NCBI RefSeq assembly: GCF_000026545.1
Contig: NC_011601.1
Direction: 5' to 3' (one strand)
From: Escherichia coli O127:H6 str. E2348/69
Lineage (GTDB): Bacteria > Pseudomonadota > Gammaproteobacteria > Enterobacterales > Enterobacteriaceae
Length of the DNA: 64,000 bases
Position numbers and translations under genes: made by a program. The notes under the pieces are model-generated. The model searched no databases and was not told the DNA's origin. It was given only the letters and a program-made list of their open reading frames with translations. Positions 30,155 to 30,350 of the stretch are shown in pieces. Within the stretch, counting starts at the first letter, position 1. Every line of letters begins with the position of its first letter.

Positions 30155-30350
30155 GGTGACCACCGTTTACTGTGCATAAAGACCCCCATTAGTTGGTGAT
30201 CACATCATACACAATAAACCATATATGGTTTAAATAAACTATGACACTCTTGGCGAGTTTCTACACATTATTTGTGGATAAATCTAACAAAATGAAAAAA
30301 ATGCACAGAAAAGTTATGATTACTACAAGATTGTTTTCGGGTAAATTGGC

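What the first reader, a model, noticed from the sequence alone, without database searches (positions are those of the whole stretch)
30217..30230. Perfect 14-bp palindrome AACCATATATGGTT between the lysis and cargo genes
It lies in the AT-rich divergent region upstream of both the holin gene and the exported-protein gene. This region lacks the ATTACC-N5-GGTAAT operator, so it may be a separate regulatory site controlling lysis or cargo expression.
Basis: seen in the sequence. Interest (0 to 1): 0.3.

Follow-up and report, generated by a model that had tools for sequence, protein, structure and literature searches.

The report
Conserved box upstream of lysis genes
The palindrome is real but no rarer than chance; it matters because it is this E. 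coli prophage's copy of a short DNA box that epsilon15-like phages keep in the promoter regions of their lysis, tailspike, head and replication operons, probably a docking site for an unidentified phage regulator.

Summary
The sequence is there. AACCATATATGGTT lies at 30217-30230 and extends to a perfect 18-bp palindrome at 30215-30232. As a bare palindrome it is unremarkable: four palindromes of at least 14 bp are seen and 4.6 expected, and an 18-bp one turns up in about 27% of shuffles.

Its significance is comparative. The window is E. coli E2348/69 carrying an epsilon15-like (Uetakevirus) prophage. In about 48 distinct relatives, the conserved non-coding block upstream of the lysis operon begins exactly at the 10-bp core CCATATATGG. 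Everything on the cargo side is unrelated sequence.

The same box (CATAT-NN-GGTT) recurs at the same four positions in the epsilon15-like genomes compared, against 0.25 expected per genome. These positions are upstream of the lysis genes, the tailspike, gp3/portal and gp40/replication. It always lies in or next to a core promoter, but at different offsets from the -10.

It therefore belongs to the lysis unit, not to the cargo. It is not a Rep operator, terminator or LexA box.

My best reading (about 0.4) is an operator-like site for an unidentified phage regulator. The rivals are a plain -35/spacer element, the edge of a conserved 5'-leader RNA hairpin, and a remnant cargo promoter. This is a new member of a known kind, of modest interest.

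The parts
30215..30232 (.). Perfect 18-bp palindrome TAAACCATATATGGTTTA; the reported 14-mer is 30217-30230
30219..30228 (.). Conserved 10-bp core CCATATATGG of the epsilon15-family box; the sharp upstream edge of the conserved lysis control block
   Evidence: Information is about 1.5 bits per position from the box onward and about 0.5 bits upstream of it, over 46 unique variants.
30155..30228 (-). Conserved non-coding block upstream of the lysis operon, running from the box to the start codon
30204..30209 (-). TATGAT, candidate -10 of a lysis promoter. The only variant in type-1 relatives is TATAAT. It also lies inside the 5' arm of the leader hairpin.
30227..30232 (-). TAAACC, candidate weak -35 (3/6) at 17-bp spacing from TATGAT; this is the cargo-side arm of the palindrome
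   Evidence: where the listing shows TTAAAC at 18-bp spacing, also 3/6; the 17-bp TAAACC reading is my own count from the sequence. Below the 9/12 threshold of the promoter scan.
30205..30219 (-). 5' arm of the conserved leader hairpin (GUUUAUUGUGUAUGA); it starts inside the palindrome
30165..30179 (-). 3' arm of the leader hairpin (UUAUGCACAGUAAAC), ending just before the ribosome-binding GGUGG at 30160-30164
29750..30154 (-). First lysis-cassette gene (epsilon15 gp23-like, Phage_holin_8), followed by holin 29455-29763, endolysin 28839-29465 and Rz 28360-28842
30206..30235 (+). Mirror-image promoter-like arrangement pointing at the cargo, CATACA-18-TTAAAT. It is homologous to Tyrion's CATACA-18-TATAAT followed by TACC (the start of a half operator); here that operator sequence is missing.
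   Evidence: read from the sequence
30292..30320 (+). Cargo cassette's own sigma-70-like promoter, ATGAAA-17-TATGAT, in front of the 335-aa gene (30351-31358) and the Acyl_transf_3 gene (31452-32525)
35311..35320 (-). Box copy TCATATAAGG in the tailspike promoter TTCATA-17-TAGAAT (35321 to 35293)
52545..52554 (-). Box copy TCATATGTGG upstream of gp3/portal, with the same geometry as the tailspike promoter
60352..60361 (-). Box copy CCATATACGG immediately upstream of the gp40 promoter, TTGATC (60351 to 60346)-17-CAAAAT (60328 to 60323)

Best explanation
The palindrome is the E2348/69 prophage's copy of a conserved cis-element of epsilon15-like (Uetakevirus) phages. Its core is CCATATATGG; the general form is YCATAT-NN-GGTT, or CC-(AT-rich 6)-GG. 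It forms the upstream edge of the control region of the lysis operon and does not belong to the cargo genes. I think it works as DNA: an operator-like site for a phage-encoded regulator other than Rep, probably dimeric. The Cro-like gp39 homologue at 60437-60670 is my candidate. Bound on or next to the -35/spacer region, the regulator would modulate RNA polymerase at the lysis promoter, and at the tailspike, gp3/portal and gp40 promoters that carry the same box. In this prophage cargo exchange has removed the usual Rep operator, so the box is the only recognisable control site left upstream of the lysis genes. What is shown: the conservation, the recurrence and the position relative to promoters. 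What is inferred: protein binding, the identity of the binder and the sign of regulation. I lean slightly to repression or occlusion, because the offsets vary.
For: (1) Homology of 20 phage records and 86 E. coli genomes to the window stops at 30222-30239, which is at the box. (2) In 46 unique type-1 variants the block from the box to the start codon is conserved, while the sequence upstream of it is unrelated. The bases after GG are T, T, T in 46/46, and A at -2 occurs in 38/46. (3) The box and block persist where the cargo is co-oriented and no operator exists, in PAS61 and TL-2011b. (4) Exact CATATNNGGTT occurs on the late-gene strand at the same four syntenic sites in the window prophage, epsilon15 and SPC32H. 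Tyrion has these four plus extra copies, and phiV10, PAS61 and TL-2011b have three on that strand. Shuffles give 0.25 per genome. (5) At the gp40 site, 59 of 64 unique variants keep CC and GG invariant while the AT-rich centre varies. That is the pattern expected for two contacted half-sites. (6) Substitutions occur at symmetric positions: CCATATGTGG and CCACATATGG, CCATATACGG and CCGTATATGG. (7) The box sits at different offsets from well-supported -10 elements. It is centred near -29.5 for the tailspike, -41.5 for gp40, and about -19.5 in the PL spacer of Tyrion and PAS61. This fits a factor site better than a fixed core-promoter element. (8) The box keeps a fixed distance from a Rep operator although the DNA between them varies. 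The gap is 30 nt in 24 of the 29 lysis variants that have an operator, and 6 nt in 58 of the 59 matching gp40 variants. At the tailspike, the operator end lies 49 nt before the -10 in 70 of 70 variants, which puts the box 27 nt from the operator. (9) The lysis-side promoter here fails the sigma-70 scan, as expected for a controlled late promoter.
Against: No binding protein is identified and nothing was tested biochemically. The motif is asymmetric: GGTT is invariant, but the first base and the cargo-side flank vary. That is unusual for a symmetric dimer site. At the tailspike promoter the box is adequately explained as the -35 hexamer TTCATA at 17 bp from TAGAAT. The varying offsets rule out a simple class-II-type activator, so the sign of regulation is unknown. 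gp39 homologues are confined to the same phage group, so co-occurrence cannot discriminate. A gp49-like regulator is present in phage ZF40, which has no boxes. The palindrome's lysis-side arm is also the base of a conserved RNA hairpin, which by itself could explain part of the conservation.
Confidence: 0.4

Rival explanations
1. Core promoter only. The box is simply the -35 region plus a conserved spacer of weak sigma-70 promoters, and no dedicated factor exists. In the window this would be TAAACC (30232 to 30227)-17-TATGAT (30209 to 30204). The copies are paralogous promoter modules.
For: The tailspike promoter TTCATA-17-TAGAAT is flagged by the scan. Its -10 varies only at position 3 across 71 variants, and the hexamer at the -35 position is TNCATA in 70/71. 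The lysis and tailspike spacers are near-identical: TATGGTTTATTGTG versus TAAGGTTTATTGGG. TATGAT is conserved with TATAAT as its only variant. A -35 match of at least 3/6 occurs in 33/41 lysis variants, against 54% in controls.
Against: The box lies 3 bp closer to the -10 in the lysis region than in the tailspike region, so its CCATA cannot serve as a -35 there. At gp40 it lies upstream of the real -35 (TTGATC), and in Tyrion's PL it lies in the spacer. Invariant CC/GG in a spacer or upstream region is not expected of core elements. TATGAT is not conserved in type-2 relatives.
Confidence: 0.2
2. RNA-level element. Lysis transcripts start at or just upstream of the box, and the lysis-side arm (GGUUUA) is the base of a conserved 13-15 bp 5'-leader hairpin. 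The hairpin would be processed by RNase III, as the epsilon15 GenBank record predicts, or would stabilise the 5' end. In that case the palindrome marks the start site or the foot of the hairpin.
For: The minus-strand RNA 30236 to 30152 folds at -27 kcal/mol, z = -3.2. The helix is kept in 24 diverse sequences, with 98.7% of cells paired. Most changes are wobble-compatible, and one pair shows a double change between types 1 and 2. Epsilon15 annotates 'RNaseIII mRNA processing' over the homologous 63 nt. In type-2 relatives a TTGACA-17-AACCAT promoter would start transcription at the foot of the hairpin. In Tyrion and SPC32H, good promoters end just before the box (read from the sequence).
Against: The box core itself is outside the helix and cannot form a stable hairpin in most relatives, because the left flank is not complementary. 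The other three box copies have no such hairpin. Covariation rests on essentially one evolutionary event. There is no Rfam family: the best match scores 24 bits against a 56-bit gathering score.
Confidence: 0.15
3. Remnant of a cargo-direction promoter. On the plus strand the box is the spacer of CATACA (30206-11)-18-TTAAAT (30230-35). This is the local version of a Rep-controlled 'moron' promoter of the PL type (-35, box in the spacer, -10 fused to ATTACC), which here has lost its operator.
For: The same architecture with strong hexamers occurs in Tyrion's PL (TTGACT-17-AATTAT followed by TACC) and upstream of the ruvC-like gene, and facing the cargo in Tyrion (CATACA-18-TATAAT followed by TACC). 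Many relatives have GGTAAT exactly 5 nt from the box on the cargo side.
Against: The box and block are retained where no divergent cargo gene exists (PAS61, TL-2011b). TTAAAT lacks the critical A at position 2. The cargo cassette has its own better promoter at 30292-30320. CATACA is only 3/6.
Confidence: 0.1
4. No function of its own. It is a chance palindrome in AT-rich DNA that happens to sit at a recombination junction between the conserved lysis module and exchangeable cargo.
For: Palindromes of this size are expected by chance. The outer arm that creates the 14/18-bp symmetry varies among relatives: half-length is 5 in 16 of 46 variants, at least 7 in 18, and below 5 in 11. Homology with all relatives ends here.
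Against: The 10-bp core is near-invariant in about 48 variants and recurs at the same syntenic promoter sites in the epsilon15-like genomes compared, about 15-fold above expectation.
Confidence: 0.1

Closest known systems
SPC32H/epsilon15 Rep operator (ATTACC-N5-GGTAAT), bound by the tetrameric Rep (PDB 5D50)
   Same: Both are palindromic, AT-rich in the centre and built around an ACC...GGT core. Both are scattered over many promoters of the same phages. The box usually lies at a fixed distance from a Rep operator.
   Different: The half-sites differ (AACC/GGTT versus TTACC/GGTAA), and there are 6 rather than 5 bases between CC and GG. The Rep pattern does not match this site even with 2 mismatches. 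The box persists where Rep operators are lost.
14-18 bp operators of lambdoid repressor/Cro pairs (434, P22, lambda)
   Same: They have similar size, dyad symmetry and conserved outer bases with a variable AT-rich centre, and they lie inside core promoters. A Cro-like gene (gp39 homologue, phrog_35) is available as a binder. The comparison with 434/P22 operators is from general knowledge.
   Different: Those operators cluster at the immunity region. This box is dispersed at late and middle promoters, is asymmetric in its conservation, and has no demonstrated binder.
Late-promoter activator boxes of P2 (Ogr, TGT-N12-ACA) and Mu (C, Mor)
   Same: One short dyad is shared by several separate late promoters that have poor -35 elements (general knowledge).
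   Different: Those boxes sit at a fixed position (-55 or -43.5). Here the offset varies from about -19.5 to -41.5.
'RNaseIII, mRNA processing' feature in the epsilon15 GenBank record (AY150271.2, 24755-24817)
   Same: It covers the homologous 63 nt upstream of gp23, including half of the box. The hairpin it implies is confirmed here.
   Different: It is a prediction about RNA. It does not account for the box core or for the three other copies.

Membership tests
Rep (SPC32H-type) operator | 17-bp ATTACC-N5-GGTAAT dyad | tested here: not met
   No match within 2 mismatches between 17923 and 35348. The box has 6-bp spacing and different flanks.
Epsilon15-family box (defined here) | CATAT-NN-GGTT / CC-W6-GG in an intergenic promoter region of a Uetakevirus, conserved at the syntenic position | tested here: met
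   Top PWM score in the window prophage (28.9). The position is syntenic with epsilon15, phiV10, SPC32H, Tyrion, PAS61 and TL-2011b.
Sigma-70 promoter (lysis direction) | -35 and -10 hexamers with a 16-18 bp spacer, at least 9/12 matches | tested here: inconclusive
   TAAACC-17-TATGAT is 8/12 and is not reported by the scan. TATGAT is conserved but also lies within an RNA helix.
Intrinsic (rho-independent) terminator | G+C-rich stem-loop followed by a T run | tested here: not met
   No terminator-like site at 30164-30350. The palindrome has no loop and only 4 G:C pairs.
RNase III processing hairpin | Long, roughly 20-bp dsRNA stem in a transcript | tested here: inconclusive
   A conserved stem of 13-15 bp, plus 4 bp, lies adjacent to the box. 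Cleavage and the 5' end of the transcript are not testable here.
LexA (SOS) box | CTGT-N8-ACAG | tested here: not met
   The sequence lacks CTGT/ACAG. The phage's SOS box is elsewhere, at 35403-35419.
Fixed-position late activator site (Ogr, C or Mor type) | Constant distance from the -10 at all regulated promoters | tested here: not met
   Box centres differ between promoters: about -29.5, -41.5, -26.5 and -19.5.
Known RNA family (Rfam 15) | Score at or above the gathering threshold | tested here: not met
   The only match is 24.4 bits against a 56-bit threshold, E = 0.37.

The most novel reading that the evidence does not exclude
The box is the operator of a second, so far unrecognised global regulator of Uetakeviruses, for example the Cro-like gp39. 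Together with Rep bound at a fixed distance, it would set the timing of every rightward transcription unit (replication, head, tailspike, lysis). In prophages such as this one, which have lost the Rep operator at the lysis genes, it would be what keeps lysis silent.
Probability: 0.3. Interest if true: 0.55.

Novelty: new member of a known kind. Interest (0 to 1): 0.35.

Why it matters
As far as I could find, how epsilon15-like phages time their late and lysis genes has not been worked out; the described control is the Rep-Ant-LexA switch. A box shared by all late-direction promoters gives a concrete handle: a probe for pull-downs and a target for mutation. These phages matter in practice. They convert O-antigens in Salmonella and in E. 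coli O157 and EPEC, and they are used as reporter and biocontrol phages (phiV10, SPN1S, SPC32H). For this particular EPEC prophage, the finding raises the question of how the lysis genes stay silent without the usual repressor site. The gain is incremental, not a new principle.

Tried and rejected
- **Terminator, LexA box, Rep operator, tRNA, Rfam family.** All were tested and none was met.
- **gp49-like protein (phrog_536, last early gene before terminase) as the binder.** Pectobacterium phage ZF40 has a 66%-identical homologue but no boxes, so this is unsupported.
- **gp40 as the binder.** TL-2011b shows no annotated gp40 gene but keeps the late boxes.
- **gp39 co-occurrence test.** It is uninformative, because the homologues are confined to the same phage group. 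gp39 has no relative in the PDB by sequence.
- **The box as a fixed -35 element, an extended -10, or a sigma-54, sigma-32 or sigma-S element.** The spacings do not fit (read from the sequence).
- **Host-factor consensus sequences.** IHF, Fis, CRP, NarL 7-2-7, MqsA, RutR, PdhR and IscR type 2 were compared from memory only. None fits, and these comparisons are leads, not tests.
- **Literature.** There is no phage paper containing CCATATATGG. The ZX5 Uetakevirus paper gives no late-promoter data (PMC9782041). Kropinski 2007, Kim & Ryu 2013 and Kim 2016 are not held, so I cannot exclude that one of them mentions this motif.
- **A single promoter model.** The attempt to assign one model to all copies failed.

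Full report
**Observation.** The 14-mer AACCATATATGGTT is at 30217-30230 as reported. The perfect palindrome is in fact 18 bp, TAAACCATATATGGTTTA, at 30215-30232. It lies in a 187-bp gap of 33% G+C. On one side is the first lysis gene (29750-30154, minus strand; Phage_holin_8 / epsilon15 gp23-like). On the other is a 335-aa exported-protein gene (30351-31358, plus strand), followed by an Acyl_transf_3 gene. No ATTACC-N5-GGTAAT operator is present there, even with two mismatches. The prophage as a whole carries about a dozen operators: the window has 18 matches against 1.7 expected, 15 of them inside the prophage.

As a bare palindrome it is not remarkable. Four perfect palindromes of at least 14 bp are observed against 4.6-4.7 expected. 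An 18-bp one appears in 25-29% of dinucleotide-preserving shuffles.

**Context.** The window is the E. coli E2348/69 (EPEC O127:H6) chromosome, identical over a 301-bp test stretch. From about 28.3 kb to the end of the window it holds an epsilon15-like (Uetakevirus) prophage, inverted relative to the epsilon15 record. The order is Rz, endolysin, holin and gp23-like (minus strand), cargo (plus), tailspike and structural genes (minus), then the early region with Rep. Rep is about 97% identical to SPC32H Rep, PDB 5D50.

**Conservation at the lysis site.** Megablast against phage records (20 hits) and complete E. coli genomes (86 genomes) shows that homology to the window always ends at 30222-30239, which is at the palindrome. 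Eighty IMG/VR loci plus seven complete phage genomes give about 48 distinct versions of the region upstream of the gp23 homologue. Anchored on the box, 46 type-1 versions average 1.54 bits per position from the box to the start codon and 0.48 bits upstream of it.

The consensus is CCATATATGG-TTTATTGTGTATGATGAACTCACCAACTAAGGGGGTT..TTATGCACAGTAAACGGTGG..ATG. The three bases after GG are T in 46/46. On the other side, only A at -2 (38/46) is notably conserved. Perfect symmetry is 10 bp in 16 variants, at least 14 bp in 18, and broken in 11. The window's 18-bp symmetry is therefore the most regular version of a 10-bp core, not the conserved unit.

Seventeen of the 46 variants, like the window, have no Rep operator upstream. 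Of the 29 that do, 24 have it exactly 30 nt from the box. In PAS61 and TL-2011b the cargo acetylase is co-oriented with the lysis genes and no operator is present, yet the box and block are intact. The element therefore belongs to the lysis unit.

**Recurrence.** Exact CATATNNGGTT occurs on the late-gene strand at the same four places in the window prophage, epsilon15 and SPC32H. Tyrion has these four plus extra copies, and phiV10, PAS61 and TL-2011b have three. Shuffled genomes give 0.25. The four places are upstream of the lysis genes, the tailspike (window 35311-35320), gp3/portal (52545-52554) and gp40 (60352-60361). A PWM scan finds further copies in some phages, in the spacer of PL and of a promoter before the ruvC-like gene. 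Phage ZF40 is unrelated but encodes a gp49-like regulator, and it has none.

**Position relative to promoters.**
- **Tailspike.** 71 unique upstream sequences all carry GGTAA-TA(G/C/A/T)AAT. The hexamer varies only at its third base, which is the signature of a true -10. TNCATA lies 17 bp upstream in 70/71. The end of the Rep operator lies exactly 49 nt before the -10 in 70/70, although the intervening 27 nt are unrelated between lineages. The promoter scan reports TTCATA-17-TAGAAT at 35321 to 35293. Here the box supplies the -35 and centres near -29.5.
- **gp3.** The geometry is the same.
- **gp40.** 59 of 64 unique sequences read terminator, operator, N6, CC-N6-GG, TTGATC, 16-18 nt, (C/G/A)AAAAT. 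CC and GG are invariant and the centre is variable. This places the box immediately upstream of the -35, centred at about -41.5.
- **Tyrion and PAS61 PL.** The box lies in the spacer of TTGACA/T-17-(G/A)ATTAT.
- **Lysis site.** The spacer is homologous to the tailspike one but 3 bp shorter, so CCATA cannot act as a -35 for the conserved TATGAT (TATAAT in phiV10). The hexamer 17 bp upstream is TAAACC in the window (3/6) and xxxxCC in relatives. It reaches at least 3/6 in 33/41 variants, against 54% in controls. The scan does not call a promoter on that strand.

**RNA alternative.** The minus-strand RNA 30236 to 30152 folds into a hairpin of -27 kcal/mol, z = -3.2. Its 5' arm (30219 to 30205) begins inside the palindrome. 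Its 3' arm (30179 to 30165) ends at the ribosome-binding site. Across 24 diverse sequences, including a divergent 'type 2' leader, 98.7% of cells pair. Changes are mostly wobble-compatible, and one pair shows a double change. Epsilon15's GenBank record annotates this stretch as a predicted RNase III site.

In type-2 relatives a TTGACA-17-AACCAT promoter would start transcription at the foot of the hairpin. In Tyrion and SPC32H, good promoters end just before the box (read from the sequence). If that is the true arrangement, the box lies at -10/+1 and TATGAT is conserved as helix rather than as a -10. I could not resolve this from sequence alone.

**Interpretation.** Across promoters the box lies at about -41.5, -29.5, -26.5 (or +4) and -19.5. 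This is always within RNA polymerase's footprint, never at a constant offset, and often at a fixed distance from a Rep operator. Three other observations point the same way: invariant CC/GG around a variable AT-rich centre, substitutions tolerated at symmetric positions, and persistence where Rep operators are lost. The reading that covers the most observations is an operator-like DNA site for a phage regulator other than Rep (confidence 0.4).

The Cro-like gp39 homologue (phrog_35) is the obvious candidate, but it is untested. Its distribution is uninformative and it has no solved relative. Rep's tetramerisation domain has been likened to DNA-looping repressors (PMC9986798). That makes co-operation between an operator and a box 20-50 bp away conceivable, but this is inference.

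Four things count against this reading. The motif's conservation is asymmetric. The tailspike copy is sufficiently explained as a -35 hexamer. No single sign of regulation fits all the offsets. The hairpin overlaps the palindrome's lysis-side arm.

The rivals are: core promoter only (0.2), RNA leader (0.15), remnant cargo-direction promoter CATACA-18-TTAAAT (0.1), and chance palindrome at a recombination junction (0.1).

**Comparison with known systems.** It is not a Rep operator, LexA box, terminator or Rfam family. It resembles lambdoid 14-18 bp operators in form, and P2 or Mu late-promoter boxes in being shared by several late promoters, but it fails their fixed-position criterion. I found no description of the motif in the searchable literature. 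The three most relevant papers are not held, so prior description cannot be excluded.

**Verdict.** It is a new member of a known kind, a phage cis-regulatory box. Interest is 0.35.

Noticed in passing
window 35403-35419: The SOS (LexA) box in front of the antirepressor gene ant (about 35427-35701, plus strand) reads CTGTATGTTTTATACAG, with 9 nt between CTGT and ACAG. Of 71 distinct relatives' sequences, 66 have the canonical 8 nt, and only the copy identical to the window has 9. A 1-bp insertion could weaken LexA control of Ant in this EPEC prophage. From memory, a point mutation in this box makes SPC32N induce constitutively.
   Followed up: partly
window 35293-35321 (minus strand): Well-supported tailspike promoter TTCATA-17-TAGAAT. 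Across 71 variants the -10 varies only at its third base, and the end of the Rep operator lies exactly 49 nt before the -10 although the sequence between them varies. The same 49-nt distance holds at the lysis site in relatives that have an operator (30+10+9).
   Followed up: yes
window 60323-60384 (minus strand): A conserved composite lies between the Cro-like gene and gp40: terminator, degenerate operator, A6, box, TTGATC-17-CAAAAT, then ATTACCGTAAT in many relatives (ATCATCGTAAT in the window). It looks like a restart promoter for the replication genes.
   Followed up: partly
window 30273-30281: A perfect DnaA box TTATCCACA (minus strand) lies in the cargo-specific AT-rich DNA. With 0.41 expected by chance in the window, it is probably coincidence.
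   Followed up: partly
window 30351-31358: The 335-aa exported protein encoded next to the O-antigen-type acyltransferase has no Pfam or PHROG family. It may be a partner of the Acyl_transf_3 protein, but its function is unknown.
   Followed up: partly
window 30138-30176 (minus strand): A 12-codon upstream reading frame (MHSKRWSPCQPS) follows a strong Shine-Dalgarno-like AAUGGGGG (AAGGGGG in most relatives), lies within the lysis leader, and overlaps the gp23 start codon. Its conservation as coding sequence was not examined.
   Followed up: no
window 52570-52610: A perfect -35 TTGACA on the plus strand, 15 nt before the Rep operator at 52594-52610, points away from gp3. This suggests that the operator controls a divergent promoter for the reverse-oriented genes; SPC32H has a tRNA-Arg there. 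The window has no tRNA.
   Followed up: partly
loci L054-L082 (type-2 lysis leaders): A second lineage has the box as AACCATAAATGGTT, preceded by GGTAAC-A6 and a perfect TTGACA 17 nt upstream of AACCAT. Its leader is divergent but keeps the hairpin.
   Followed up: partly
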